This document shows positions 443 to 20,528 of a stretch of 47,688 nt of DNA, in pieces. This stretch comes from a virus, in IMG/VR virus record IMGVR_UViG_3300044709_000119, positions 1 to 47,688 of that record. One strand, written 5' to 3'. The position numbers and the translations under genes are program-made. Below the pieces are notes generated by a model. The model saw only the letters and a program-made list of their open reading frames with translations. It ran no database searches and was not told the DNA's origin. Each line of letters begins with the position of its first letter. The first letter of the stretch is position 1.

Positions 443-688
443 ATGACCAACCGAGACACCGAACGCCCCCCCATCCAAGACCAGATCGACGGCCTCTCGA
501 GGACACTGGCCCACTTGGAGGTCGAGCTGATGTTCACCATGAAGTACTGCCGCGCAGCCTCCTTGGCCCTCGGGGCCATCGCGATGGTCGGGGTCATCGA
601 CCAGGAGCGCGCCCTCTACCTCGAGCGCCAGAAGCAAGGCCCCGAGGATGATACCCAGCCGAGCGTACGGCTCAAGGTAGCCACCTGA
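443..688 (+). CDS. small membrane protein (one predicted TM segment)
   Basis: ATG 443 preceded by GAGGAA; hydrophobic stretch AASLALGAIAMVGVI; stop overlaps next start (TGATG). Confidence 0.55.
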   Translation: MTNRDTERPPIQDQIDGLSRTLAHLEVELMFTMKYCRAASLALGAIAMVGVIDQERALYLERQKQGPEDDTQPSVRLKVAT

Positions 689-780
689 TGCGCCCCTTCC
701 TAGTCTCACTGGCCGTCAACGCGCTCGTGCTTTACGTGGGGATCCGGTGGCTCCACCGAGCCACCCAAGGGGCGTCGTGA
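688..780 (+). CDS. 30-aa hydrophobic peptide (MRPFLVSLAVNALVLYVGIRWLH...)
   Basis: ATG shares its A with the upstream TGA; its own TGA abuts the GTG of the next ORF; single TM-like stretch; too short for the ORF track. Confidence 0.3.
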   Translation: MRPFLVSLAVNALVLYVGIRWLHRATQGAS

Positions 781-1029
781 GTGGCGCTCGAACCCCTGTC
801 CATCGGAGCACTTGCGACGAGTGTCCTGGCTGCACTCTCGGGGGCGACAGCCGCCATCTGGAAGGCTGCCCAAGCTCGCAAGGCAAAGCAGGAGAAGGAA
901 GTCGAGGATTTGCGGACCGAACTCAAGGCGTCTCAGAAAGAGCTGTTGCAGACAGCGCTGGCGCTCGCGAAGCTGCAAGGAAGATTCGAGCAGGAGCTCG
1001 CCCGTACCTCGAGTCCGCCGCCGACCTGA
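781..1029 (+). CDS. small protein with N-terminal TM segment plus coiled coil (holin/spanin-like position after tail genes)
   Basis: GTG 781; LSIGALATSVLAALSGATAAIW followed by a charged helical KAKQEKEVEDLRTELKASQKELLQ. Confidence 0.5.
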   Translation: MALEPLSIGALATSVLAALSGATAAIWKAAQARKAKQEKEVEDLRTELKASQKELLQTALALAKLQGRFEQELARTSSPPPT

Positions 1030-1118
1030 TGGACTGGGACGACGCCGACGAGGCTGATACAGGATTGCTACAAGCTGAGCTGAAACGCCTCAAGAGCGAC
1101 CGTCCCGAAACCTGAGCG

Positions 1119-1160
1119 TGTCACTTCTGTGTTGACAGTCACGCCCCAGTGTGCGATTCT
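1119..1160 (+). promoter_or_regulatory. sigma70-like promoter with conserved 19-bp motif TGTCACTTCTGTGTTGACA
   Basis: TTGACA (1132-1137), 17-nt spacer, GATTCT (1155-1160); in-frame GTG 1167 lies 6 nt after the -10 (leaderless geometry). Confidence 0.6.
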
Positions 1161-1166
1161 GGGTAC

Positions 1167-1652
1167 GTGAAACCGGAGACGCGCCACGAGCTGAAGACCG
1201 CAATCCGGGAGGCCATACGGGAGGAGGCGAGCTTTCTTCCCCACTGGACCGACACGCTGCCGCCTCTCCATGACAACGGCGCCGAGGAGGAGGTCCTGGC
1301 GGCAATGCTGCGCGGACACATCGCCAAGCCATTCCGTGGCCTCTGTGCCCACCACTTCTTCAGTGACTCCCACAAGTCGGTGTTCGCGCACGCGCACCTG
1401 GAGTGGGAGCGCCTGAAGCCAAATCTAACGCCAAATCTCATCTTCTGGTACGTGCAGCTGCTGAAGGACCGCGCTCCGAGTCCGCGCGATGTGCTCGAGT
1501 CGCGTGCTGATCGAATCATCGAGCTCGCCGCTGCCAGGAAGCTCTCGAACCTGATCCGCCGGCTCGACATCGAGCTCCACCACCAAACCATCCACACCTG
1601 CGACGCCGAGCATGAGCTTCAGGAATACCTCCTCAGACAGCAGTCCGAATGA
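1167..1652 (+). CDS. DnaB N-terminal-domain-like protein
   Basis: PPLHDNGAEEEVLAAMLRG...FFSDSHKSVFAHA resembles the DnaB_N signature (PP..EAE..VLG..L...F...H..IF). The track ORF opens at GTG 1149, inside the promoter spacer, so GTG 1167 is preferred. Confidence 0.6.
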   Translation: MKPETRHELKTAIREAIREEASFLPHWTDTLPPLHDNGAEEEVLAAMLRGHIAKPFRGLCAHHFFSDSHKSVFAHAHLEWERLKPNLTPNLIFWYVQLLKDRAPSPRDVLESRADRIIELAAARKLSNLIRRLDIELHHQTIHTCDAEHELQEYLLRQQSE

Positions 1653-1833
1653 GGCGCTTCAGCCGTGTGCGGTCTGCAAGTACGTTCTCTGTATCTGCGG
1701 AATCCAGCGCCTCCATGACCCCTTTTGCCAGAGACTCATGAAAATCCTCGATACCAAGCCAAGGCTCTGTTTGCCGCACTCCATGATCGCTTGTGGCGAG
1801 TGCTTCCCCTGCGACTGCGGGTCATCCACGTGA
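1612..1833 (+). CDS. Cys-rich small protein (73 aa)
   Basis: ATG 1612; clusters CAVCKYVLCIC and CGECFPCDC; TGA overlaps the GTG of the following cassette (GTGA). Confidence 0.45.
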   Translation: MSFRNTSSDSSPNEALQPCAVCKYVLCICGIQRLHDPFCQRLMKILDTKPRLCLPHSMIACGECFPCDCGSST

Positions 1834-2015
1834 AGCGCCTGGCGGGACCTCGCGAGCGGCTGGGGCGGCGGCTGGGGGGGCGGCTGTACCGGCGGCTGGA
1901 CTGGCGGCTGTGGCGGCGGCTATGCCGGCGGCTGGACTGGCGGCTGTGGGCGCGGGTGGGGCGGCGGCTGGAGGGGCGACTGGGGGGGCGGATCTATGAC
2001 AGGAGCCGCGCGTGA
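1830..2015 (+). CDS. junction cassette copy 1: (x-x-R-L)13 Arg/Leu repeat mini-ORF, 61 aa
   Basis: GTGAAGCGCCTGGCGGG head, 12-nt nnnnnnCGGCTG units, ATCTATGACAGGAGCCGCGCGTGA tail; start overlaps upstream stop and stop overlaps downstream GTG. Confidence 0.55.
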   Translation: MKRLAGPRERLGRRLGGRLYRRLDWRLWRRLCRRLDWRLWARVGRRLEGRLGGRIYDRSRA

Positions 2016-2224
2016 TCTGCGAGCTAGAGTTCGAGTGCTGCCAGCGCACCACTGTGGTCATGTTCGACGTGGGTCCGCTCGCTGGGCGAGGCAAGAACCG
2101 GAAGGCTTGCAGCGCCTGTTGGCGAGCGCTCACGGCGCGCCAAGCGCCACCGAAGCCTGCCACTGCGCCGAAGGTATCGGACGCGCTGCCCTCCATCAGG
2201 ATGCGCCAGCGCCCGCTGATGTGA
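2012..2224 (+). CDS. small Zn-ribbon-like protein (70 aa)
   Basis: GTG 2012 lies inside the cassette tail, 7 nt after AGGAG; contains ECC...CSAC. Confidence 0.5.
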   Translation: MICELEFECCQRTTVVMFDVGPLAGRGKNRKACSACWRALTARQAPPKPATAPKVSDALPSIRMRQRPLM

Positions 2225-2227
2225 CCT

Positions 2228-2305
2228 TGGTTGCGGAGAGCCGGATTCGAACCGGCGACCTATTGGTTATGAGCCAATCGCGCTACCAGACTGCGCCATC
2301 CCGCA
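2228..2305 (-). tRNA. tRNA-Met-like (anticodon CAT), atypical acceptor stem
   Basis: reverse complement reads TGCGGGA-TG-GCGC-AGTCTGGTA-GCGC-G-ATTGG-CTCATAA-CCAAT-AGGTC-GCCGG-TTCGAAT-CCGGC-TCTCCGCA-ACCA. D, anticodon and T arms are canonical; the acceptor needs a 1-nt bulge. Confidence 0.7.
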
Positions 2306-2321
2306 GAGCGCACTGTATACC

Positions 2322-2699
2322 CTAGAACGCTTCGGTGTCTAGGTAGGCGCCGCGGTACTCGGCCACGGCCGCGTTCTGCCAGTCGCGTCTCTGAGCGTTG
2401 GGCCAGCCCTCGAAGTGCCCCGCTGCGTCGTGGAACTGCCTGTGGTGCTTGAAGCACAGCGGGAAGGCCCAGCTGTCATGCGCCTTCTGCCCCTTGCCGC
2501 GCGGCGCGTGCCGGGCGGCGCCGTCGAGCTCCCAGGGCTTCACGCTGCCGCAGGTGGAGTGATGGGCCTGGACCTGCACCGGCGACGCGCAGACGTGGCA
2601 CGGGAGCGCCCTGATGCGGTCGAGGTAGCTCGGCTCGTCCGGAACCGTGGCGCCCTCAGACGGGTGAGCCCTGGCGTCGCGCTTCCTATGTAGGGTCAT
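2322..2699 (-). CDS. HNH-type nuclease, Ref/DUF968-like
   Basis: LPCHVC...AHH...GKGQKAHDSWAFPLCFKHHRQFH matches the CxxC...HH...G.K..D...PLC..HH..H pattern of Ref/DUF968 proteins. Confidence 0.5.
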   Translation of the reverse strand: MTLHRKRDARAHPSEGATVPDEPSYLDRIRALPCHVCASPVQVQAHHSTCGSVKPWELDGAARHAPRGKGQKAHDSWAFPLCFKHHRQFHDAAGHFEGWPNAQRRDWQNAAVAEYRGAYLDTEAF

Positions 2700-3336
2700 G
2701 TGAGTAATCCGTCCAGTGTCGTCATAATCCCAGCTCGGGTAGGCCCCCGGCCAGGGTTCCCACTTCCGCTCCTTCTGGGTCTCTTCTTCTCTGAGACCCT
2801 TCCAGTCAGAGAGGGCTATCTACGTTGCGGCTGCAATTAGGCTCCCACCCTGCCATCCAGCTCTGTCACGGCTTACGCCGCTGTGGGATGAGAGGAGCCG
2901 TCCCTGCAGTTTATGCTCGAGCGGCCCAGACGTCGTCAGTTGCACGGCATTCCTGGGTTTCTCCGTGCCCGCTATGGCCGGGGGCGCAGGCTTCTCTGCC
3001 TGTGATGGGCATAGGGTGCTTCCACCTGAGGTGCACGGATTCTCGCCCGATTGCTCTATGAGCGCCACGGGAGGCGACCGCCATTTCGACTGAAGTCGCG
3101 ATCCACTGCAAACGGGATCACTTGGGCGCCGCAAGACAAGCGCTTCGCCAGAGTCCTGGACCACGATAGTTCTCTCCTGAGCTTCTTCGGCCTTGTAGGC
3201 ATGAACGGCGTCAGGTAGGGTGGCCATCGTAGGTATTGCACCCGGACCCTACGCCGGCTTAGACCCCTGAGTCAACCGCAATGGACCGTAACATCCAGCG
3301 CCAGGTTGGTTGAGGGGCCTAGGCAGGGAAACACGG

Positions 3337-3534
3337 ATGAAACGGCGCGCGAAGCAGTACCTCGTGTTGATCGGATTCCAGGGCAGGATCCTTGGATGCT
3401 TCGTGGCAGGCGGCCAGTTTGCGCATCTGCTCGGAGAGATCCCGGTCGACCATCGCGACAGGCAGTACTGTGTTCGCGCGAAGACTCGTAAAGACGCCAC
3501 GTTCAAGGCGTACAAGCAATGGCTGACGAGGTAG
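3337..3534 (+). CDS. hypothetical protein (65 aa)
   Basis: ATG 3337; hand-counted GC3 about 77 percent versus about 66 percent for the overlapping minus-strand frame; ends 7 nt before the lipoprotein gene start. Confidence 0.35.
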   Translation: MKRRAKQYLVLIGFQGRILGCFVAGGQFAHLLGEIPVDHRDRQYCVRAKTRKDATFKAYKQWLTR

Positions 3535-3541
3535 AGGGAAG

Positions 3542-4003
3542 ATGAAAAACAAGACGTTCCTAGGGGTCCTATTGGCGCTGGCGTTCTCTGCGTGCGGAGG
3601 CGAGGCTCCAGACGAAACTGTGGCGCAGGTCGACAGTGAGCTCTGCAACGCGCACCGGCGCATGAACCTCATCGAGGTCTACGAGCGAGCGGGTGGCACT
3701 TGTGGGATCTGGCCCGGCGACACAAATGGCTCCGCCAAGAACCCGTGGTACTTCAACCTCGACACCCAGATCGCTTTCGGCAGCTACAACAGCCCCACGC
3801 GGTGCACGTACCTGTCCGCTGGTGCCTGCTCCACCTTTGCCGGAGTGGTCCTGTCGTTCAGCAACACGGCATTTTGCCAAGGCTTCCCCGAGGGCTGGTT
3901 CTACCTGGACATCTTCAACCAGTACTCGGGCGCCGTGATCCACAAGTACGGCGGCAGCTGCGACAGCACCTACGACGCAGTTGTCACGAAGGCATCGTAC
4001 TAG
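3542..4003 (+). CDS. putative secreted lipoprotein (moron-like, opposite to flanking genes)
   Basis: GAGGGAAG RBS; MKNKTFLGVLLALAFSAC signal with lipobox-like FSAC; Cys-rich mature part; followed by a hairpin. Confidence 0.75.
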   Translation: MKNKTFLGVLLALAFSACGGEAPDETVAQVDSELCNAHRRMNLIEVYERAGGTCGIWPGDTNGSAKNPWYFNLDTQIAFGSYNSPTRCTYLSAGACSTFAGVVLSFSNTAFCQGFPEGWFYLDIFNQYSGAVIHKYGGSCDSTYDAVVTKASY

Positions 4004-4020
4004 CGCTCCCTACTAAGCCT

Positions 4021-4050
4021 AGGGCGCAGGATCTCGAGTCTCTGCGCCCT
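4021..4050 (+). terminator. stem-loop after the lipoprotein gene (candidate intrinsic terminator)
   Basis: AGGGCGCAG, 12-nt loop, CTGCGCCCT (9-bp perfect stem), followed by TTGCTC (weak T tract). Confidence 0.45.
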
Positions 4051-4178
4051 TTGCTCATCGTGGAAAGAAATAAAGCGCAGGTCGATCCTGTCACACACGG
4101 GATTGCGTAATAGCCTGAGTCTCATGGACAACCTGGTCCACCGTTCCAGCGTTAGCGAACTCTCTTGCAACAGCCGCT

Positions 4179-4412
4179 TCACGTCTCCACCCCCTGCAAT
4201 AGTGCCGACAGCGAGCACCCGTAAGCTCGAGCGAACTTCTGCAGGGTCTTGAACTGGGGCGAGTAGTACCCGAGCTCTGTCTTCGCCAGGTAGTACGCGC
4301 TGACGCCGACCTGATTCGCCGCGAATGGCTGCGTCCACCGGTACGACTTGCGCCACTCCGCCAGCGCTCGGCCGAGCTGCGCGTATGGGCGCTTCCTGTT
4401 GCCGCGTTTCAT
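4179..4412 (-). CDS. XRE-family helix-turn-helix regulator
   Basis: LAEWRKSYRWTQPFAANQVGVSAYYLAKTELGYYSPQFKTLQKFARAYGCSLSALL has the Cro/CI-type HTH layout. Confidence 0.8.
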   Translation of the reverse strand: MKRGNRKRPYAQLGRALAEWRKSYRWTQPFAANQVGVSAYYLAKTELGYYSPQFKTLQKFARAYGCSLSALLQGVET

Positions 4413-4413
4413 T

Positions 4414-6171
4414 TCAGTCTTCTCCAGGTTGGCGTGTGCCGTACACGATTTCAGTGAGCTTGGCTGGGTCGATCTTCCCGTAGCGTCCCCAGCCCTGCTC
4501 GTTCAAGTAGGCCATGGCCTCTTTGGCCCGGTCAGCCTTCACCGCCGTCTCCACGATCCCATACTTTTTCAGCTGCTTCACCTGCTTAAGCGATGCTAAC
4601 CCATCGGCCTTGCGCCTGAACAGGGAGTCGAGAAGCTTCGAAGCAGCGGAGCGGCTCAGCCCCTCGAGCTCCTTGTCGTCGAGCCCGAACTTCTTCAGGG
4701 CATCCGCCTGGCGCTCGCTCGGAGGCTTGAACCCGAAACGCCGCGTGTAGCGCTCGGAGTCGCCCAGGTCGACGTCCAAGATCTTGAACGGATCCCACTG
4801 CGTCTCCCGCGACTTTACCCTCACCTTCGCCGCCATGGCTGCGCGGGCGAGCTTCTCTCGAGCCTCCTTGAGTGCCTCGCGGATGTCGGCCGAGTTGCCC
4901 TTCTTGAGGAGCTTTTTCGCCTCCTCTACTTCCTCGTCGGTGTGGTTTCCCGCAAGAGCGTCGACGGGTCCAACAAGCTTGTGCTTACCGGCATTTCCCA
5001 CGAAGTCCATGACCACGCAATTGGGCTTACGTGATCCCGCAATGGCGCCTCTACGACTCGCATCCTGTGACCGATCAGGAAACGAATCGATAACTCCGGG
5101 CAGCGAACGGAGGCCTCGACCAATCTTCTGAACGATGAGCGCTCGCGATTTGGTGGGTCGTCCCAGTACAATGAGTGAAGTAGGCGGCGCATCGAAACCT
5201 TCCGTCAAAATTGAGCAATTGTGGAGCTCCTTGAGCTCGCCATTCCGGAACCTTCGGATCGCGTTCTTCACCGGGCAGTCAGCGCCATCCGCACGGAGTT
5301 CGCCAGCCACCCACTCGGCGCTGCCCGGCCTGAGCGCGTTGGCTCGAGCAGCGGCCGCCTCAGCGCACCGAACCCCTGGCCAGAAGTAGAGCGCCGGCCT
5401 GTCAGGCTCGAGCTCCCGGGACCGCGCCACGATGCCGTTCACCGCCTTGAACATGGCGTCGTCTAGTTGCCCAGCCGACAGGTCACCGGCAGAGTCCTGG
5501 ACCCCGGAGATGTCAATCTCATCCAGTTGCACCGACTGACCCACGAGCGGAACCAGGAACCCGTCAGCGATGCCGTCCTCGATGTCGTACGTGAAAGCCA
5601 CATCCTCCAGGATCATCCCGAGCGCCACCTCGTCAGCACGGTCAGGAGTCGCTGTGACGCCAAGGCGCTTCGCATCGAAGAACTCGAACGCCCGCCTGTA
5701 CGTTGACGCTGTAAAATGATGCGCTTCATCTGCGATTACCAGGCCGAATCGCCCCTTCCCGAGGCGGTCAAGCCGCGCCTGGTTCATCGACTGAATGGAC
5801 CCGACTACGAGACGCTGGCTTGGAACGCTCCGCTCGTTGGCCTTCTCGACTCCGACACTCTCACCTGTCGCCACGGCAAGCGCGTCCGCAGCCTGGCGCA
5901 CGAGCTCGTCCCTGTGGGCCAGCACCAGCACGTTGGGGCTCGCATTGAAGTCGTACGGCCAGCAGCTGGCGATGTGGCTGAACGATCTGGTTTTGCCAAG
6001 TCCTGTAGCCATTACGAGCAGCGTTGACCGGTACTCCCGTAGGCTCGCCAGGATGCGCGACTCGGCCTCTGTCTGATACCAGCGAAGCCCGCTTCCGCGA
6101 GCCTCCGCCCTCACAGGAGCAGGCGGTACAGGGCGAGGAGGAGCATCGAAGAACCCAAGCTGCGAGCTCAC
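4414..6171 (-). CDS. superfamily 2 DEAD/DEAH-box helicase
   Basis: LRWYQ (Q motif), MATGLGKT (Walker A), VIADEAHH (DEAH), GVTATP (motif III); GTG start lies in the cassette tail. Confidence 0.9.
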   Translation of the reverse strand: MSSQLGFFDAPPRPVPPAPVRAEARGSGLRWYQTEAESRILASLREYRSTLLVMATGLGKTRSFSHIASCWPYDFNASPNVLVLAHRDELVRQAADALAVATGESVGVEKANERSVPSQRLVVGSIQSMNQARLDRLGKGRFGLVIADEAHHFTASTYRRAFEFFDAKRLGVTATPDRADEVALGMILEDVAFTYDIEDGIADGFLVPLVGQSVQLDEIDISGVQDSAGDLSAGQLDDAMFKAVNGIVARSRELEPDRPALYFWPGVRCAEAAAARANALRPGSAEWVAGELRADGADCPVKNAIRRFRNGELKELHNCSILTEGFDAPPTSLIVLGRPTKSRALIVQKIGRGLRSLPGVIDSFPDRSQDASRRGAIAGSRKPNCVVMDFVGNAGKHKLVGPVDALAGNHTDEEVEEAKKLLKKGNSADIREALKEAREKLARAAMAAKVRVKSRETQWDPFKILDVDLGDSERYTRRFGFKPPSERQADALKKFGLDDKELEGLSRSAASKLLDSLFRRKADGLASLKQVKQLKKYGIVETAVKADRAKEAMAYLNEQGWGRYGKIDPAKLTEIVYGTRQPGED

Positions 6172-6353
6172 GCGCGGCTCCTGTCATACAGCCGCACATA
6201 CAGCCGCCCCCACAGCCGCCCGCCCAGCCACGCCCCCAGCCGCTCACTCAGCCGCTCGTACAGCCGCCAGCCCAGCCGCTCGTACATCCGCCCGTTCAGC
6301 CGCCCGCTCAGCCGCCGGTACAGCCGCCCGCGAGGTCCCGCCAGGCGCTTCAT
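6168..6353 (-). CDS. junction cassette copy 2: (x-x-R-L) repeat mini-ORF, 61 aa
   Basis: ATGAAGCGCCTGGCGGGACCTCGCGGGCGGCTG head; 10 of 12 units are exactly CGGCTG; tail TATGACAGGAGCCGCGCGTGA overlaps the helicase GTG. Confidence 0.55.
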   Translation of the reverse strand: MKRLAGPRGRLYRRLSGRLNGRMYERLGWRLYERLSERLGAWLGGRLWGRLYVRLYDRSRA

Positions 6354-6480
6354 GGCCACCCCCAGAAGCGCCTGCCCAGCGTCCACCAGGGGTTGTCAAT
6401 AGACGATGCGCCGGTGCTCGCAATTCGCTTCCACGTCAGCCACTCGAACGGGTCGAGCCCTCGCCATTGTGCAATTCGTT

Positions 6481-7392
6481 TCACTCTCGGCTCCTGAGCA
6501 GGTCAGCCAGGCGCTCTGGTTTGGCGGCGACCATCACGATACGGTCCACCTGGTCGAAGAACTTGTCGTCCACTGATTCAATCTTCGCCTGGCAGATCCA
6601 CCCCTGCATCTCGCATAGCGCGCACGACTCCTGGACTCCAGCAACCCCCTTGCAGTATGGACAGAGGCTCGCGGGGAACATGTTGCCAAGCAGCACCTCG
6701 AGCTGAGCTGTGAGCTCCTCAGCGTTACGGCGCACGCGGTGCGGCATGGGCATGGTGCGCAGCGCCGCGAGGTGCGCCTTTGTCTTCGCGACTAGGTCAC
6801 GCGCCATCGCAACGCGGTACTGAATGGATCCGATCTGCTTCTTGAACGGCTCCTCGAGCGGCATGCCGATATCGTGGAGCTTCACCTCAACCTCGCGAGG
6901 CTTCTCGGGCTCCTCCTGGCTGTGGCGCCTGTAGGCTCGCGCCAGTAGCTTCTGGTCCACGCCAGCAGCCTTGGCCACGCGGGCCACGGCACGCTGCAAC
7001 GGGGTCTTCTTGCTCTTCTCCATGGTTACCTCGGGAAGTTCTCTCAATCGGTCAATCTCTTCGGTGAGCGCACGCAGCGACGACTCGTCTGCGTTGCGCC
7101 TGTGTGCGTCCTCGGCCAGTTCGATGAGCTTCGCTTCGCGGTCAGAGCAGCGAACGACACGGCAACGGATCTCAGCGCGCTGAAGGAGCACATGGGCCGC
7201 CACGCGGTCCCGCCCAGCCAGCAGCTGGTACCGAGACCCGTCCTTTCGAACAGTCGGAGGGTTGATCATCACCAGCTCATCTATCGACTGGGCCAGGCGC
7301 CTGACGTGGTCAGCTTGGGTGCGCTGACGGATCTCCCCGGGAAGCCACAGCTTGGCCATAGCAAGGACCTTCTCGCCGAGTTCCTCTATCAC
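6481..7392 (-). CDS. ParB/Srx N-terminal-domain-like protein with C-terminal Cys cluster
   Basis: RRLAQSIDELVMINPPTVRKDGSRYQLLAGRDRVAAHVLL resembles the ParB N-terminal box; CPYC...CALC near the C-terminus; GTG start lies in the cassette tail. Confidence 0.55.
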   Translation of the reverse strand: MIEELGEKVLAMAKLWLPGEIRQRTQADHVRRLAQSIDELVMINPPTVRKDGSRYQLLAGRDRVAAHVLLQRAEIRCRVVRCSDREAKLIELAEDAHRRNADESSLRALTEEIDRLRELPEVTMEKSKKTPLQRAVARVAKAAGVDQKLLARAYRRHSQEEPEKPREVEVKLHDIGMPLEEPFKKQIGSIQYRVAMARDLVAKTKAHLAALRTMPMPHRVRRNAEELTAQLEVLLGNMFPASLCPYCKGVAGVQESCALCEMQGWICQAKIESVDDKFFDQVDRIVMVAAKPERLADLLRSRE

Positions 7393-7538
7393 GCGCGACT
7401 CCTGTCATAGATCCGACCGTACAGCCGCTCGTGCAGCCGCTCCTCCAGCCGCTCGTACAACCGATCGTCCAGCCGCTCCCACAGCCGCCAGTACAGCCGC
7501 CCGTCCAGCCGCCCGCGAGGCTCCGCCAGGCGCTTCAC
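7389..7538 (-). CDS. junction cassette copy 3: (x-x-R-L) repeat mini-ORF, 49 aa
   Basis: GTGAAGCGCCTGGCGGAGCCTCGCGGGCGGCTG head overlaps the erf stop (GTGA); 7 of 9 units are exactly CGGCTG; tail ATCTATGACAGGAGTCGCGCGTGA. Confidence 0.55.
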   Translation of the reverse strand: MKRLAEPRGRLDGRLYWRLWERLDDRLYERLEERLHERLYGRIYDRSRA

Positions 7539-8350: not shown

Positions 8351-8376
8351 GCGCCCCTAGATCGTGCCAGGGGCGC
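8351..8376 (-). terminator. hairpin between cassette copy 4 and erf (possible attenuator or terminator)
   Basis: GCGCCCCT, 10-nt loop, AGGGGCGC (8-bp perfect stem); on the minus strand it is followed by AATTCTTCT. Confidence 0.35.
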
Positions 8377-8385
8377 GCCATTAGG

Positions 8386-8508
8386 TCACCGTGTCTGCCC
8401 GCTCAGCCGATCGTACAGCCGCCCCCCCAGCCGCCAGGCCAGTCGCCCCCACAGCCGCCAGGCCAGTCGCCCCCACAGCCGCCAGCCAGGTTCCGCCAGG
8501 CGCTTCAT
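8386..8508 (-). CDS. junction cassette copy 4 (short): (x-x-R-L)7 mini-ORF, 40 aa
   Basis: ATGAAGCGCCTGGCGGAACC head overlaps the upstream stop (ATGA); lacks the AGGAG/GTGA tail. Confidence 0.5.
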   Translation of the reverse strand: MKRLAEPGWRLWGRLAWRLWGRLAWRLGGRLYDRLSGQTR

Positions 8509-9458
8509 TTTTCCCAGACGTATTGCAGTTCCGGGTTGCGGTCACACTCCTCGGAAGATACCGACGGAAGACCCAATCGCTCCCACGGCACCTGCCACTT
8601 GCGCGCGCCGAGTGCGGTCTTGAGGTCATCGGCAACCTGTTCCACGTAGAACGGCTGGTCTCCAGTCAGCAGTACAGGGCTCTGCTTCTTGAGCGCATGC
8701 TCTCCGCTGGGAAAGCGGTAGAGCGTGTAAGCAAGACCAGTCTCCTTGTCTACCTGCGAGCTCACCTCGGTGGCCCCCATGGCACCGAGCGCCACGTCCC
8801 AACCTAGCTTCTCACACAGCGCACGACGCACCTCGGTAGTCAGCTGCATCGCAGTAGGCACCAGGGACATCGGGTCCATGATGAGCGCCTTCGGGACCTC
8901 TACCCCGTGCCAGTAGTACTTCTCGCCGTCTTCTGCCCAGTGGAAAGCAGCACGGGTAGCCGAATGGAGCTCCCAATTCTCGTCCACGTCCACACGTGGA
9001 TTCTTCACGCACGCAAAGTGGGCGTCGTAGACCACGGAGTCGTACACGCACATTGATAGCGGGTAGATCTCGCCTGCCAGGCGCGAGTTGTCGTCGGGCT
9101 CGAGCTTCTTGAGTTCGTCGATTACGCAGCGGAAGTGGGCGAGCCACCGACGCTGCGGGAGCCCGATCCCATCGGTGCCCATGTGTTGCGACTTAGCACG
9201 CTGCCACTCTTTGTCGCCAGCCTTACCGGCCGGCTGCTCTTTCGCCCACTGCTCACGCTGCCACGCAAACAGCGCCTCACGCGAGTCGAAGCACACGATG
9301 TGTTCCGGAGGAGCAGCGTCTAACGCCTTGTAGAGCGCGTTCACCGCAGGCCTGAGCGACTCTGGAGAGATGTCTTGGATCGTGACCCGAGAGTGCTCCT
9401 CGACAAACTTGTCAACGAAGGCCCATTCCTCGGGAGTGAGGTCGTTTGCGTCAGCCAT
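8505..9458 (-). CDS. hypothetical protein (317 aa)
   Basis: ATG 9458 shares a base with the upstream TGA (TGATG). The N-terminal extension in the track looks like non-coding read-through. Confidence 0.65.
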   Translation of the reverse strand: MADANDLTPEEWAFVDKFVEEHSRVTIQDISPESLRPAVNALYKALDAAPPEHIVCFDSREALFAWQREQWAKEQPAGKAGDKEWQRAKSQHMGTDGIGLPQRRWLAHFRCVIDELKKLEPDDNSRLAGEIYPLSMCVYDSVVYDAHFACVKNPRVDVDENWELHSATRAAFHWAEDGEKYYWHGVEVPKALIMDPMSLVPTAMQLTTEVRRALCEKLGWDVALGAMGATEVSSQVDKETGLAYTLYRFPSGEHALKKQSPVLLTGDQPFYVEQVADDLKTALGARKWQVPWERLGLPSVSSEECDRNPELQYVWEK

Positions 9459-9768: not shown

Positions 9769-10740
9769 TTACTTCTTCTCTTTCAGCCAGCGGAATTGCT
9801 GGAACGGTTTTCCGGTCTTCTGGAAGCTGCGAGCTTCCGGGAATGCTTTCTCGAGAGCCTCGAAGTCTATCGACTTGCGGCCCGGCATGTTCACGGGCAG
9901 GAAGCGCTTGCCGCTCGTCTCGTCTCGAATCGCCTCGCCCCGGCGCGCTCGCTCCTCGAACTCCTCGACCACTGCCTTGCCCAGCTCGACGAGCGCCTTC
10001 GCCCTGAGCACTTGGGTAGCCGCGTCGCAAGTCAGCCCTTGCGGGTCGGCCACAAGCTTGATGGCCTCGCCCAGGTGCTCTGGGCAGTGGAGGCGCTCCC
10101 AGCACTCACGGCAGTGGAGGCCGGTCGATCCTGTAGTGGCCAGGTTCAGCGCCGCCTGAGTAACGCGACCCACGATCCCAAGGTCTTCGGAGCTGCCCAC
10201 TCGGATCATTCGGTCTAGCCAGTGCCACTCACCATCCTCGGCCACGTAGATCCCAGTCGTGTAGTAGTCACACTGCCTCATGCGAGCGTATGTGGCAGCG
10301 TAGGCCATCACCTGCAGGGTTTCTGGACCGGTTGATGTCCAGATGGTCTTTTTGGCGTCAGCGACGAATGCGACACGAAGCGGGCGCTTCTCGAGCGCTT
10401 GCAACTCCTTGGTCCAGGCCATGTCGAGATGGCCAACGCACTCGAGCCCGCCCCCCAGTGGCAACCGCACCTCAAGCTCCCTCTCAGCCTCGCTCACGAG
10501 TAGCTTGGTGCCGTCGCTCGCCTCGGACTCCACGGGCACCTGCCAGGAGTTCACCTCCTCGGCCTCCTCAGGGGTCAGCGCTGGCATGGGCGCCCCTGAG
10601 ACGCGAGCATGGAAAGCGGTTCCCATGGCCGCCGCGCGTCCGGCGCCGTAGCGCGATCCGAGCGTTCCAGCGAGCCCGCAGAACTCGCTCACGCCAAGTG
10701 CGCTCATGCGGTTCGGGGTGGCGAAAAGGTCGTCAAACAT
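9769..10740 (-). CDS. PD-(D/E)XK (Cas4/RecB-like) exonuclease
   Basis: GHLDM...FVADAKK (D...D.K motif) and C-terminal CRECWERLHC cluster; sits beside erf as in exo/annealase pairs. Confidence 0.6.
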   Translation of the reverse strand: MFDDLFATPNRMSALGVSEFCGLAGTLGSRYGAGRAAAMGTAFHARVSGAPMPALTPEEAEEVNSWQVPVESEASDGTKLLVSEAERELEVRLPLGGGLECVGHLDMAWTKELQALEKRPLRVAFVADAKKTIWTSTGPETLQVMAYAATYARMRQCDYYTTGIYVAEDGEWHWLDRMIRVGSSEDLGIVGRVTQAALNLATTGSTGLHCRECWERLHCPEHLGEAIKLVADPQGLTCDAATQVLRAKALVELGKAVVEEFEERARRGEAIRDETSGKRFLPVNMPGRKSIDFEALEKAFPEARSFQKTGKPFQQFRWLKEKK

Positions 10741-10969
10741 TGCGTGTGTCCTGACTATCAGAGTTCGCTTCGCGTGTCAACACAGAAGTGACAAGTCGAT
10801 CGTACATCCGCCCGCCCAGCCGCTCGTATATCCGCCAGTACATCCACCAGCCCAGCCGCTCGTATATCCGCCAGTACATCCACTCCCCCAGCCTACCCCG
10901 CAACACACGACCCGTACGCCCCTCCAGCCGCCCCCCCAACCGCCAGTCCGGGTCCGCCAGGCGCTTCAT
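10733..10969 (-). CDS. junction cassette copy 5: repeat body 10794..10969 fused to a promoter; ORF reads on to 10733
   Basis: ATGAAGCGCCTGGCGGACCC head overlaps the upstream stop (ATGA); 13 x-x-R-L/M/I units; after ...MYDRL the frame runs through the 19-bp promoter motif. Confidence 0.4.
   Translation of the reverse strand: MKRLADPDWRLGGRLEGRTGRVLRGRLGEWMYWRIYERLGWWMYWRIYERLGGRMYDRLVTSVLTREANSDSQDTRNV
10752..10793 (-). promoter_or_regulatory. sigma70-like promoter with 19-bp motif TGTCACTTCTGTGTTGACA
   Basis: minus strand: TTGACA, 17 nt, TAGTCA, then GGACACACGCA-ATG (10740). Confidence 0.6.
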
Positions 10970-11719: not shown

Positions 11720-11982
11720 TTGGAGAATCTCACAGAGGAAGGGTGGACTTTGAGTTGAGTTGCGATCGTATCGGTGGCCATGGCTTTCGCCTCGGCCCTG
11801 GAAGTGGCACGCAGAAAGAACGAATGGTCCCCGGACTCGCACTCATACACATCGCCTTGCCCGTGATTCACACCGAAGTAGCAATTGTTGTAGGCTCCGG
11901 CGTAGCCGTTCGAGTCGATACGCACCTTGCGAAGGTGACACTTGAGTGCGTCGGTACGGTAGACACGAGGGGAAGCGCTCAC
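11716..11982 (-). CDS. hypothetical protein (88 aa)
   Basis: GTG 11982 overlaps the cassette stop (GTGA). Confidence 0.5.
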   Translation of the reverse strand: MSASPRVYRTDALKCHLRKVRIDSNGYAGAYNNCYFGVNHGQGDVYECESGDHSFFLRATSRAEAKAMATDTIATQLKVHPSSVRFSK

Positions 11983-12149
11983 AGCGAAATCCCCTCCAGC
12001 CGCCCCCACAGCCGCCCCTCCAGCCGCCCCCGCAGCCGCCAGTACAGCCGCCCGTCCAGTCGCCCGTACAGTCGCCCCCCCAGCCGCCCGTCCAGCCGCC
12101 GCCCCAGCCGCCCGTCCAGCCGCCCGCGAGGTCCCGCCAGGCGCTTCAT
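11979..12149 (-). CDS. junction cassette copy 6: (x-x-R-L) repeat mini-ORF, 56 aa
   Basis: TGATGAAGCGCCTGGCGGGACCTCGCGGGCGGCTG head; 11 R-L units; stop overlaps the downstream GTG. Confidence 0.55.
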   Translation of the reverse strand: MKRLAGPRGRLDGRLGRRLDGRLGGRLYGRLDGRLYWRLRGRLEGRLWGRLEGISL

Positions 12150-13012: not shown

Positions 13013-13195
13013 CTAGCCCCCCACCCACCCCCACAGCCGCCACAGCCGCCCCCACAGCCGCCCGTCCAGCCGCCGCCACAGCCGCCCGTACAGCCGCCGG
13101 CCCAGCCGCTCGCCCAGCCGCCAGCCAAGGCGACCGCTCAGGCGCCAATACAGCCGCCCGTCCAGCCGCCCGCGAGGTCTAGTCAGGCGCTTCAC
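13013..13195 (-). CDS. junction cassette copy 7: (x-x-R-L) repeat mini-ORF, 60 aa
   Basis: GTGAAGCGCCTGACTAGACCTCGCGGGCGGCTG head overlaps the upstream stop (GTGA); 11 units; divergent WRLWGWVGG tail. Confidence 0.5.
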   Translation of the reverse strand: MKRLTRPRGRLDGRLYWRLSGRLGWRLGERLGRRLYGRLWRRLDGRLWGRLWRLWGWVGG

Positions 13196-20184: not shown

Positions 20185-20358
20185 ATGAAAAGACTCAACG
20201 AAGAGGTCTGCATGAGCGAGTGGCTTCGTGCGCACGCGCCGACGGCCCTGTTCCGCAGGAAATCGCGACCGAGCAAGATCTCAAAAAATGCGATGACCAT
20301 CCTCTTCTTACGCCTCGAAGGGATCTGCCCATTCCCCGACATGCGAGCATGGCCGTGA
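20185..20358 (+). CDS. hypothetical protein (57 aa)
   Basis: ATG 20185 after GGGAATTCTCC; TGA lies inside the cassette head (GTGA). Confidence 0.45.
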   Translation: MKRLNEEVCMSEWLRAHAPTALFRRKSRPSKISKNAMTILFLRLEGICPFPDMRAWP

Positions 20359-20528
20359 AGCGCCTGGAGGACACTCGCGGGCGTATGGACTGGCGGCTGC
20401 ATGACCGGCTGTACCGGCGGCTGGCGGGGCGGCTGGGCGGGCGGCTGGACGGGCCGGTGTGGCGGCGGCTGAGCGGTCGACTTGGCTGGCGGCTGGACGG
20501 GCAGATCTATGACAGGAGTATGCTGTGA
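20355..20528 (+). CDS. junction cassette copy 8: (x-x-R-L) repeat mini-ORF, 57 aa
   Basis: GTGAAGCGCCTGGAGGACACTCGCGGGCGTATG head; tail ATCTATGACAGGAGTATGCTGTGA overlaps the GTG of the rusA-like gene. Confidence 0.55.
   Translation: MKRLEDTRGRMDWRLHDRLYRRLAGRLGGRLDGPVWRRLSGRLGWRLDGQIYDRSML

What the first reader, a model, noticed from the sequence alone, without database searches (positions are those of the whole stretch)
6168..6353. Within units the hexamer CGGCTG is almost invariant at nucleotide level while the other six bases vary freely
In copy 2, 10 of 12 units are exactly CGGCTG. In copy 3, 7 of 9 units are. Arg is nearly always CGG, not CGC, and Leu is nearly always CTG, with only occasional TTG, ATG or ATC. 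The two preceding codons change non-synonymously (G, D, Y, W, E, S, H, N, C, R). Pure peptide selection would tolerate synonymous Arg and Leu codons. The pattern therefore points to a DNA or RNA-level constraint, or to concerted evolution by slippage or gene conversion. It is compatible with a protein binding a hexamer every 12 nt (iterons, ParR/omega-type centromeres, or cluster-A mycobacteriophage stoperators as analogies). It is also compatible with a run of 10-13 regularly spaced CGG/CUG codons acting like an oversized leader peptide sensing tRNA-Arg(CCG) or Arg/Leu supply. A third possibility is structure or R-loop formation by the G-rich sense strand.
Basis: partly seen in the sequence, partly recalled or inferred. 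Interest (0 to 1): 0.7.

Follow-up and report, generated by a model that had tools for sequence, protein, structure and literature searches.

The report
Arg-Leu repeat mini-protein genes in phage
The near-invariant CGGCTG hexamer sits in one of eight copies of a small phage gene for a helical peptide with Arg-Leu every fourth residue. It stays uniform because the repeat units are kept alike within a genome, not because the DNA hexamer is a signal: related phages spell the same Arg-Leu with other codons.

Summary
Region 6168-6353 (- strand) is a 61-codon ORF with 12 units of x1-x2-Arg-Leu, and 10 of the 12 are CGGCTG. It is one of eight paralogues in this 47.7-kb phage contig.

All eight start codons overlap the stop of an upstream ORF (ATGA/GTGA). 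Five of the eight stops overlap a GTG start.

CGGCTG encodes 70% of the Arg-Leu units, against about 6% expected from this genome's codon usage. The hexamer is not universal, though. Related contigs carry the same (x-x-R/Q-L)n peptides, each with its own dominant spelling: CGCCTG, CGGCTC, CGGCTT, CGACTG, and CAGCTC inside a true 460-aa DUF6745 protein.

Synonymous diversity at the neighbouring x2 codon is as low as at Arg and Leu. Only the non-synonymous positions of x1 and x2 are hypervariable. Arrays at the same junctions in a phage with 91-92% identical flanks differ in unit number and order.

Best reading: a translated coding minisatellite. Arg and the hydrophobic residue are under purifying selection, concerted evolution homogenises all third positions within a genome, and x1/x2 turn over fast. 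The iteron, tRNA-sensor, RNA-structure and G4 readings are not supported. What the peptide does is unknown, and the family has no Pfam or PHROG match.

The parts
6168..6353 (-). c2, the finding: 61-codon ORF, MKRLAGP-(x1 x2 R L)12-YDRSRA*
   Evidence: The ATG at 6353-6351 overlaps the TGA of the upstream ORF (ATGA). The TGA at 6170-6168 overlaps the GTG start of the helicase.
6333..6353 (-). Head of c2, ATG AAG CGC CTG GCG GGA CCT. Nearly identical at nucleotide level in the paralogues. Here Arg is CGC, not CGG.
   Evidence: 33 nt identical between c2 and c6
6189..6332 (-). Array of c2: 12 units of 12 nt, 10 of them ending in CGGCTG
6168..6188 (-). Tail TAT GAC AGG AGC CGC GCG TGA. It holds AGGAG (6182-6178), 6 nt before the GTG start of the helicase (6171-6169).
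   Evidence: read directly from the sequence
4414..6171 (-). Downstream gene: SF2 DNA helicase, whose start overlaps the c2 stop by 4 nt
   Evidence: (phrog_16, E 3e-65)
6350..6484 (-). Upstream 44-aa ORF (VKRIAQW...WWTLGRRFWGWP*). Its stop overlaps the c2 start and its start overlaps the ParB-like stop. Most of it (window 6353-6476) has no counterpart in L250.
1830..2015 (+). c1 paralogue, 61 codons
7389..7538 (-). c3 paralogue, 49 codons, between the Erf-like and ParB-like genes, with 4-nt overlaps at both ends
8386..8508 (-). c4 paralogue, 40 codons. Its start overlaps the stop of the DUF6745-like gene.
10733..10969 (-). c5 paralogue, 78 codons, with an irregular array and a longer non-repeat tail. 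This is protein P0122 of the JGI contig.
11979..12149 (-). c6 paralogue, 56 codons
13013..13195 (-). c7 paralogue, 60 codons; contains a 9-nt unit
20355..20528 (+). c8 paralogue, 57 codons
8505..9455 (-). DUF6745-like early gene directly upstream of c4. In other phage-like contigs, homologues carry an internal (x-x-Q-L)n array.

Best explanation
Region 6168-6353 (-) is a translated small gene. It is one of eight paralogues in this phage that encode a long alpha-helical peptide with Arg-Leu at every fourth and fifth... more precisely at the third and fourth residue of each four-residue unit, a new 'RL-tetrad' mini-protein family. The 12-nt unit behaves as a coding minisatellite.

Three forces together give the pattern.
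1. Purifying selection on the peptide keeps Arg (or Gln/His) and a hydrophobic residue at fixed positions.
2. Concerted evolution keeps all third codon positions alike within one genome. This includes the x2 codon, not only Arg and Leu. The inferred mechanism is unit gain and loss by slippage or unequal exchange, plus gene conversion among the dispersed copies.
3. The two residues x1 and x2 turn over fast, with non-synonymous diversity above synonymous diversity.

CGGCTG is therefore this lineage's current spelling of Arg-Leu, not a sequence signal.

Shown: the ORF anatomy, the 4-nt start/stop overlaps, the codon statistics, the lineage-specific hexamers, the array turnover, and the same pattern inside a true multidomain protein.

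Inferred: the turnover mechanism; that the ORFs are translated and pass ribosomes on to the next gene; and that the peptide acts as a helical rod or adaptor whose surface is set by x1 and x2. The biochemical function is unknown.
For: Anatomy. There are eight ORFs with a nucleotide-conserved head M/V-KRLAxP, an array (x1 x2 R L) of 7-12 units, and in four of them (c1, c2, c3, c8) a shared tail IYDRS...*. All eight starts overlap an upstream TGA by 4 nt. Five stops overlap a GTG start, and AGGAG lies in the tail.

Codon bias. CGGCTG is 57/81 units, against 5/88 Arg-Leu dipeptides in other genes.

Lineage-specific spelling. L250 uses CGGCTG (46/57), L249 CGCCTG (23/39, plus CACCTG 7), L253 CGGCTC (56/79), L254 CGGCTT (38/60) and L256 CGACTG (78/183, with many other spellings). 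Background codon usage does not predict these choices in most of the genomes. DGRL is spelled GACGGGCGGCTG, GATGGCCGCCTG, GACGGCCGGCTC or GACGGACGGCTT depending on the genome.

Diversity per codon slot in the window, as pS/pN: x2 0.15/0.42, Arg 0.20/0.06, Leu 0.14/0.17. In L256 the copies are not homogenised and pS exceeds pN at Arg (0.38/0.21) and Leu (0.47/0.10).

Leave-one-out tally of the Leu slot in the window: 46 L, 2 V, 1 M. For the Arg slot: 45 R, 1 P, 1 W.

Control in an unambiguous gene. The 460-aa DUF6745 protein P0139 has (x-x-Q-L)38 with CAGCTC in 34 of 38 units. The array sits in frame between two domains.

Turnover. Orthologous arrays in the window and L250 differ in unit number and order, while flanks are 91-92% identical. 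Non-orthologous copies share longer exact runs than orthologues do, for example 40 nt between window c4 and L250 c5. Sites c2, c4 and c5 are also occupied in L249, where the spelling is CGC.

Frame. The aberrant units are mostly 9 nt long, so they stay in frame.

Structure. AlphaFold2 predicts one helix over residues 7-60, mean pLDDT 72.
Against: There is no expression or proteomic evidence that the ORFs are translated.

No homologue has a known function, and there is no Pfam, PHROG, NCBIfam or PADLOC match for the small proteins.

The families in L253, L254 and L256 have different heads and tails. Their common descent with the window's family rests mainly on the shared tetrad pattern and on a profile search prone to low-complexity matches. 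Convergence cannot be excluded.

The CGG/CGC difference between the window and L249 may trace to a single ancestral substitution that later spread.

One L250 copy (the c4 orthologue) is frameshifted at a G run.

A Leu every 4.0 residues does not fit a canonical straight coiled coil, and the structure model has only moderate confidence.

The window is a metagenome assembly. Dispersed repeats of about 150 nt could be mis-joined. Only c1 and c2 are reproduced in a second assembly.
Confidence: 0.78

Rival explanations
1. A MIRU-like selfish junction element. In this reading the 12-nt minisatellite, with its conserved head and tail, spreads to gene junctions. Its ORF exists only to hand ribosomes from the upstream stop to the downstream start. 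The peptide has no function, and Arg-Leu is just what the repeat happens to encode.
For: All eight starts and five of eight stops overlap neighbouring ORFs by 4 nt, and the tail carries AGGAG plus the downstream GTG. This is the arrangement described for MIRUs (PMC12548453).

Head and tail are conserved at the nucleotide level.

Presence varies among relatives. There is no array at the Erf/ParB junction in L249 and none in 21.6 kb of L248.

A 124-nt stretch holding most of a small ORF (window 6353-6476) is present in the window and absent from L250. Array turnover is rapid.
Against: In L253, L254 and L256 the copies lie in tandem clusters of 4 to more than 25 genes and link only each other, so they are not bridging larger genes.

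Arg and the hydrophobic residue are kept while synonymous sites differ between genomes. In the old, diverged L256 copies pS exceeds pN at both slots.

The same tetrad module is an in-frame part of DUF6745 proteins.

L248 has non-repetitive small ORFs with the same M/V-KRL start and scattered xx[RKQ]L units at the equivalent junction.
Confidence: 0.15
2. DNA-level protein-binding arrays. A phage protein, for example the ParB-like protein, binds a hexamer every 12 bp, as with iterons, ParR or omega centromeres, or stoperators.
For: Hexamers are regularly spaced at eight sites, and a ParB-like gene lies next to c2 and c3.
Against: The hexamer differs in L249 (CGCCTG), which keeps orthologous ParB-like, Erf and helicase genes. 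L248 keeps those genes and has no array.

The arrays lie inside ORFs at eight dispersed junctions, not in a non-coding origin or par site.

The same invariant-hexamer pattern occurs inside a DUF6745 coding sequence.

Synonymous conservation is no stronger in the hexamer than at x2.
Confidence: 0.04
3. An RNA- or DNA-structure element, or a codon-sensing leader. The options are pairing between CGGCUG hexamers (self-complementary if G-U pairs are allowed), G-quadruplex or R-loop formation by the G-rich strand, or a run of CGG/CUG codons that senses tRNA-Arg(CCG) or the Arg/Leu supply.
For: The sense strand of the window arrays is 48-59% G, and some arrays hold G4-type motifs. By inspection, CGGCUG can pair with itself through two G-U pairs.
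Against: The predicted folding energy is not exceptional: c2 z = -1.33, L249 +0.33, L253 +1.64.

Relatives have 25-32% G and no G4 motif in their arrays.

CGCCUG and CGGCUC are not self-complementary.

The Arg codon is CGC in L249 and CGA in L256, so no single tRNA is addressed. The window encodes no tRNA-Arg.

No attenuator-type terminator follows the arrays, apart from a hairpin after c4. There is no Rfam match.
Confidence: 0.03

Closest known systems
Coding minisatellites under concerted evolution with hypervariable contact codons (the PRDM9 zinc-finger array, PMC3890296)
   Same: Units are nearly identical at the nucleotide level, synonymous sites included, except for a few codons that vary non-synonymously. 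Unit number and order change fast between close relatives.
   Different: The unit here is 12 nt (4 aa) rather than 84 nt. The fold is a helix, not a zinc finger. The arrays lie in eight dispersed small genes of a phage. Positive selection at x1/x2 is suggested only by pN above pS (0.42 against 0.15 at x2) and has not been tested with a codon model.
TAEL tetrapeptide repeats of Type I restriction HsdS subunits (EcoR124I/II; PMC3874165)
   Same: A 12-bp repeat encodes four residues with Leu last, roughly one helical turn. The repeat number varies by unit gain or loss, and the repeat lies in a long alpha-helix. A PADLOC HsdS profile matches the tetrad-repeat part of the DUF6745 proteins.
   Different: HsdS has 2-3 repeats inside a large subunit, where they set the spacing of two DNA-recognition domains. 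Here 7-12 repeats make up almost the whole of a free-standing 40-78 aa protein, with Arg in place of Glu.
DUF6745 (PF20530) proteins with a central (x-x-Q/E/K-L)n array
   Same: They have the same tetrad pattern and the same x1/x2 repertoire (Y, G, D, S / G, D, A, N). They are the top long hits of a profile built from the eight window peptides. The one whose DNA was read shows the same invariant-hexamer, variable-six-base pattern (CAGCTC 34/38). It lies in an early region of a phage-like contig. The window has a DUF6745-like gene directly upstream of c4.
   Different: In those proteins the array is an internal linker between two domains and uses Gln, Glu or Lys. In the window the arrays are separate small ORFs using Arg, and the window's DUF6745-like protein has no array.
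Mycobacterial interspersed repetitive units (MIRUs; PMC12548453)
   Same: Short tandem-repeat elements sit at gene junctions within operons. Their internal ORF is coupled to the neighbouring gene with a 4-nt overlap.
   Different: There is no sequence relationship, and the setting is a phage rather than a mycobacterial chromosome. The peptide pattern here is conserved across genomes with different codons, and in other genomes the copies form tandem gene clusters.
Iterons, ParR/omega centromere repeats and cluster-A stoperators
   Same: Short motifs repeated at regular spacing or at many sites in a mobile genome.
   Different: The motif is not conserved among relatives that share the candidate binding proteins. 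It lies inside ORFs, and its conservation is explained by codon position.

Membership tests
Coding minisatellite under concerted evolution | Units are more alike within a genome than between genomes, also at synonymous sites | tested here: met
   There are six different dominant hexamers in seven genomes, each at 43-89% of units. The same tetrapeptide is spelled differently in each genome.
Coding minisatellite under concerted evolution | Unit number and order differ between close relatives at the same locus | tested here: met
   Seven orthologous arrays of the window and L250 differ in number and order, with flanks 91-92% identical.
Coding minisatellite under concerted evolution | The array is translated in a fixed frame | tested here: inconclusive
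   For: between-genome differences fall on third positions of the R-L frame, Leu-slot replacements are hydrophobic, and the aberrant units are 9 nt. Against: one frameshifted copy in L250. No expression data are available.
Iteron or centromere-type protein-binding repeat array | The motif is conserved among related replicons that share the binding protein | tested here: not met
   L249 uses CGCCTG and L248 has no array, yet both keep the ParB-like, Erf and helicase genes.
Iteron or centromere-type protein-binding repeat array | The array lies in a non-coding control region (origin or par site) | tested here: not met
   There are eight arrays. Each fills an ORF whose start overlaps the stop of an upstream ORF, and five also overlap the next start.
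Iteron or centromere-type protein-binding repeat array | Specific binding by a cognate protein | not testable with these tools
   This needs EMSA, ChIP or footprinting.
Leader-peptide attenuator | A run of regulatory codons for one amino acid or tRNA, followed by alternative terminator/antiterminator hairpins upstream of a related operon | tested here: not met
   The Arg codon changes between relatives (CGG, CGC, CGA). Folding z-scores are -1.33 to +1.64. Only c4 is followed by a terminator-like hairpin. The downstream genes are for replication and recombination.
MIRU | An internal ORF overlaps the neighbouring genes' stop and start codons by 4 nt | tested here: met
   8 of 8 starts and 5 of 8 stops overlap.
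MIRU | Sequence family of 40-100 bp units in mycobacterial chromosomes | tested here: not met
   The unit is 12 nt, the context is a phage, and there is no Rfam or other match. This is an analogy of arrangement only.
HsdS TAEL-repeat helix | A 12-bp unit encoding four residues ending in Leu, variable in number | tested here: met
HsdS TAEL-repeat helix | The repeat lies between two target-recognition domains of a Type I specificity subunit | tested here: not met
   The window peptides are free-standing proteins of 40-78 aa with no PADLOC or Pfam hit.
DUF6745 (PF20530) repeat proteins | The tetrad array is flanked by the N-terminal domain and the DUF6745 C-terminal domain | tested here: not met
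   The small ORFs have no such domains. The neighbouring gene 8505-9455 is DUF6745-like but lacks repeats.
G-quadruplex or R-loop forming repeat | G-run architecture conserved where the element is conserved | tested here: not met
   G4 motifs and 48-59% G occur only in the window/L250 lineage. The arrays of L249, L253, L254 and L256 have 25-32% G and no motif.

The most novel reading that the evidence does not exclude
The RL-tetrad peptides, and the related arrays inside phage DUF6745 proteins, may be a phage-encoded library of variable binding helices. A fixed Arg-Leu scaffold would present two hypervariable residues per helical turn. Minisatellite shuffling among many gene copies would diversify those residues and an arms race would select them. 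In logic this resembles two-variable-residue repeat readers such as TAL effectors, but with a four-residue unit. The target could be a host defence protein. It could also be a single-stranded nucleic acid: I calculate a rise of about 6 A per unit, close to the spacing of backbone phosphates.
Probability: 0.12. Interest if true: 0.8.

Novelty: new variant of a known kind. Interest (0 to 1): 0.45.

Why it matters
The hexamer puzzle has an ordinary answer: peptide selection plus concerted evolution. That removes a tempting but wrong regulatory reading.

What remains is less ordinary. It is an unannotated family of multicopy, fast-evolving mini-proteins made almost entirely of four-residue Arg-Leu units. 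Eight copies are threaded between the early genes of this phage, and relatives carry from 8 to more than 25 copies.

The family is linked by its repeat type to the uncharacterised DUF6745 proteins, two of which lie in phage-like contigs here. If the peptides are functional, they offer a compact example of repeat-driven surface diversification in phages. They are also a candidate for host-takeover or anti-defence functions.

The case is also a useful caution for genome scans. Invariant synonymous sites inside tandem coding repeats do not by themselves indicate a DNA or RNA signal.

Tried and rejected
Collection scans
- The generic three-unit pattern in IMG/VR returned only unrelated simple repeats.
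- Exact head and tail patterns in IMG/VR gave chance hits or nothing.
- A head-plus-first-unit pattern in genome contigs was too loose. That scan was wasted, so absence from bacterial genomes is NOT established.
- A head-plus-two-units pattern in JGI metagenomes gave one chance hit in an unrelated gene.

Protein and DNA searches
- Megablast of the region against cultured phages found nothing.
- tblastn of two peptides against cultured phages found nothing, though the low-complexity filter may hide hits.
- The terminase is at most 35% identical to any cultured phage, so the host remains unknown.
- A word-seeded protein search with c2 alone found nothing. The alignment-seeded search and the full HMMER scan were needed.
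- The helicase in IMG/VR gave no relative.

Hypotheses dropped
- Self-pairing of CGGCUG with G-U pairs was considered and dropped after folding and after finding CGCCUG and CGGCUC relatives.
- No association with promoters was found.

Not tested or uninformative
- A diversity-generating retroelement as the source of x1/x2 variation was considered but not tested: the window was not scanned for a reverse transcriptase or a template repeat.
- A literature search for DUF6745 returned no paper.
- The contig of P0008 could not be read because no DNA was available.
Full report
**What is there.** The window is a complete-looking contig of a tailed phage with no close cultured relative. It encodes an SF2 helicase, a ParB-like protein, an Erf-like annealing protein, a large terminase and tail spike proteins. 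GC content is about 63%.

The finding's coordinates, 6168-6353 on the - strand, are an ORF of 61 codons: MKRLAGP, then twelve four-codon units x1-x2-Arg-Leu, then YDRSRA and a stop. It is not unique. TRF finds period-12 arrays at eight places, and six-frame translation shows eight paralogous ORFs:
- c1 1830-2015 (+)
- c2 6168-6353 (-)
- c3 7389-7538 (-)
- c4 8386-8508 (-)
- c5 10733-10969 (-)
- c6 11979-12149 (-)
- c7 13013-13195 (-)
- c8 20355-20528 (+)

Each lies on the strand of its neighbours. All eight start codons overlap the TGA of an upstream ORF (ATGA or GTGA). Five stop codons overlap a GTG start (GTGA). The shared tail TAT GAC AGG AGC CGC GCG TGA contains AGGAG 6 nt before that GTG. 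For c2 the downstream gene is the helicase (4414-6171).

**Checking the observation.** A three-unit pattern matches 54 times against 0.02 in shuffles. In the window's long ORFs CGG is 17% of Arg codons and CTG 35% of Leu codons, and only 5 of 88 Arg-Leu dipeptides are CGGCTG. In the arrays 57 of 81 units are.

One part of the description is overstated. The 'other six bases' are not free. Base 6, the third position of x2, is G in 73 of 81 units and carries 1.48 bits. The third positions of Arg and Leu carry 1.32 bits each. Gly at x2 is nearly always GGG, a minority codon in this genome (23%).

The Logan contig L126 is 100% identical to window 520-6350. That covers c1 completely and c2 from its 4th base. 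The reads may be the same as those behind the window.

**Relatives decide the question.** Exact DNA patterns found no copy in IMG/VR or JGI metagenomes. The helicase, however, has thousands of relatives on contigs of 44-50 kb.

- *L250* (helicase 94% identical, flanking DNA 91-92%) has arrays at the same seven junctions covered by the locus, still spelled CGGCTG. Unit number and order differ throughout. For example, c3 and its orthologue are both 49 codons long but differ at most x1/x2 positions. Non-orthologous copies share longer exact runs than orthologues do: 40 nt between window c4 and L250 c5, against 19-24 nt for six of the seven orthologous pairs.
- *L249* (helicase 77%) has arrays at the c2, c4 and c5 junctions. 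There Arg-Leu is CGC CTG in 23 of 39 units, with CAC CTG (His-Leu) in 7. The tail is V-Y-S/L-R-S-Q/R, with Ser spelled TCA instead of AGC.
- *L248* (helicase 75%) has no array in 21.6 kb. It does have non-repetitive small ORFs with the same M/V-KRL start and scattered xx[RKQ]L units at the equivalent junction.

An alignment-seeded protein search and a full HMMER scan then revealed the same kind of small protein elsewhere.
- L253 (GC 61%) has eight tandem genes spelled CGG CTC (56/79).
- L254 (GC 51%) has five or more tandem genes spelled CGG CTT (38/60).
- L256 (GC 42%) has more than 25 genes in 12 kb, spelled mostly CGA CTG (78/183) with many other spellings and frequent Gln.

Background codon usage does not predict these choices in most of the genomes. 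The same tetrapeptide is spelled differently in each genome. DGRL is GACGGGCGGCTG, GATGGCCGCCTG, GACGGCCGGCTC or GACGGACGGCTT.

**Why the hexamer looks invariant.** Nei-Gojobori-type diversities among the window's 81 units:

| Slot | pS | pN |
|---|---|---|
| x2 | 0.15 | 0.42 |
| Arg | 0.20 | 0.06 |
| Leu | 0.14 | 0.17 |

Synonymous diversity is uniformly low across x2, Arg and Leu, so the hexamer has no special synonymous constraint. What differs is the non-synonymous rate. It is low at Arg, limited to hydrophobic replacements at Leu, and high at x1/x2. A leave-one-out tally gives 46 L, 2 V and 1 M at the Leu slot, and 45 R, 1 P and 1 W at the Arg slot. In L256, where the copies are old and not homogenised, pS exceeds pN at Arg (0.38/0.21) and Leu (0.47/0.10).

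An internal control is the 460-aa DUF6745 protein P0139. It lies in an early region of a phage-like contig that also encodes WhiB, RusA and Prim-Pol proteins. Its array (x-x-Q-L)38 sits in frame between two domains and uses CAGCTC in 34 of 38 units, with variable x1/x2. The 'invariant hexamer plus variable six' pattern therefore arises in an unquestionable coding sequence.

The pattern is that of a coding minisatellite. Units are gained, lost and exchanged within and between copies, which homogenises every third position within a genome. Selection fixes two residues and lets, or makes, the other two change. The turnover mechanism (slippage, unequal exchange, gene conversion, possibly helped by the phage's Erf-like protein) is inferred, not shown.

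**Rejected readings.**
- *RNA structure.* c2 RNA folds no better than shuffles (z = -1.33), and the L249 and L253 copies fold no better or worse than shuffles (+0.33, +1.64). My own idea that CGGCUG pairs with itself through G-U pairs fails on CGCCUG and CGGCUC.
- *G4 or R-loop.* The G-rich sense strand (48-59% G) and the G4 motifs are confined to the window/L250 lineage. Other arrays have 25-32% G and no motif.
- *tRNA sensor.* The Arg codon is CGG, CGC or CGA depending on the genome. The window encodes only tRNA-Met. No attenuator-like terminators follow the arrays.
- *Protein-binding hexamers.* The motif changes or disappears in relatives that keep the ParB-like, Erf and helicase genes, and the arrays fill ORFs.

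**The main rival.** The serious alternative is a MIRU-like reading. In it, a selfish junction minisatellite carries an ORF that only preserves translational coupling (PMC12548453). The 4-nt overlaps, the Shine-Dalgarno sequence in the tail, the presence/absence pattern and a 124-nt indel holding most of a small ORF (window 6353-6476, absent from L250) fit it.

Four results argue against it: the tandem gene clusters in L253, L254 and L256; the peptide-level conservation across different codons; pS above pN in L256; and the presence of the same module inside DUF6745 proteins.

The two readings are not exclusive. The ORFs may both encode peptides and serve as coupling links. Either way, the explanation of the hexamer is the same.

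**What the peptide might be.** AlphaFold2 predicts a single helix over residues 7-60 (mean pLDDT 72). There is no Pfam, PHROG, NCBIfam or PADLOC match for the small proteins.

Six of the eleven long profile hits that I scanned against Pfam are DUF6745 proteins with a central (x-x-Q/E/K-L)n array. The window's gene 8505-9455, directly upstream of c4, is DUF6745-like without an array (Pfam E = 0.0024; BLASTP 2e-7). A PADLOC Type I HsdS profile matches the repeat part of the DUF6745 proteins. That recalls the 12-bp TAEL repeats that lengthen the HsdS helix by about one turn per unit (PMC3874165).

My working model, which is an inference, is a helical rod of variable length on an Arg-Leu scaffold, with x1/x2 as the variable surface. 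It would sit among early genes where fast-evolving host-interaction proteins are common. The function is unknown.

**Verdict.** That makes it a new variant of known kinds. Interest is moderate.

Noticed in passing
window 6350-6484 (-): A 44-aa ORF (VKRIAQW...WWTLGRRFWGWP*) lies between the ParB-like gene and c2, with 4-nt overlaps at both ends. It ends in what looks like three decayed units (WWTL GRRF WGWP). Window 6353-6476 has no counterpart in L250, where the c2 orthologue follows the ParB-like gene directly.
   Followed up: partly
window 8351-8376 (-): A strong terminator-like hairpin (10 bp, 8 G-C, followed by a T-rich run) lies directly after c4 and before the Erf-like gene. c4 is one of the three copies whose stop does not overlap the next start. 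The first half of the hairpin is seen at the same position in L250.
   Followed up: partly
L250 6587-6753: The orthologue of c4 has an 11-nt unit (GGGGG instead of GGGGGG), which shifts the frame. This is either a homopolymer assembly error or a real frameshifted, possibly phase-variable, copy.
   Followed up: no
L250 4188-4361 and 2000-2173; window 13013-13195: There are 9-nt units: TGG GGG CTG (W-G-L) lacking the Arg codon in L250, and TGG CGG CTG (W-R-L) lacking one variable codon in window c7. L250 has three W-G-L units in a row. These length changes keep the reading frame.
   Followed up: partly
window 8505-9455 (-): An early gene with weak but reproducible similarity to DUF6745 (PF20530). 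Homologues in other contigs carry long internal (x-x-Q/E/K-L)n arrays. The one whose context was read (P0139) lies in a phage-like contig. No paper in the library mentions DUF6745.
   Followed up: partly
window 18543 (+), about 49 codons; also L248 4400, 4544, 7396; L249 4482; L252 827: Other small, non-repetitive ORFs in this phage group also begin with ATG/GTG AAR CGN CTN (M/V-K-R-L). Several begin right at an upstream stop codon. The shared start may be an older family signature or a favoured re-initiation context.
   Followed up: partly
window 2228-2305 (-): A tRNA-Met (CAT) gene, the only tRNA in the contig. It lies close to c1.
   Followed up: no
L249 4607-7348 (P0002) and other helicase homologues (P0021, P0030, P0057 and others): The orthologous helicase carries intein or homing-endonuclease domains (Hom_end_hint, PF07591/PF14890) in several relatives but not in the window.
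   Followed up: no
L250 9273-10109: Relative to the window (5721/5726), the helicase gene of L250 holds about 835 nt with no counterpart. Its called product is a truncated 471 aa. This may be an inserted element or an assembly problem.
   Followed up: no
L256 1-12228 (NCBI GCA_905168725.1, 162-kb contig, GC 42%): More than 25 small genes of the family lie in 12 kb, next to GmrSD_N-domain genes. They share the head M-K-K-Q-x-E-I-Y-K-x-L-E-D-R-L-x3-P-R-x-R-L and the tail RLKEVK. This is the largest expansion seen. The nature of the contig (jumbo phage, plasmid or chromosome) was not determined.
   Followed up: partly
L251 10167-11575: A more distant relative (helicase 52%) carries Tad2-like and BubE-like (anti-defence) genes on the same 12.8-kb locus as the helicase. 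It has no RL-tetrad array in that locus.
   Followed up: no
L126 (Logan SRR35907395), 5831 nt = window 520-6350: This short-read contig ends 3 nt into the c2 ORF, inside the 33-nt stretch that c2 shares with c6. The dispersed copies therefore break de Bruijn assemblies, which may be why the family is under-represented in databases.
   Followed up: partly
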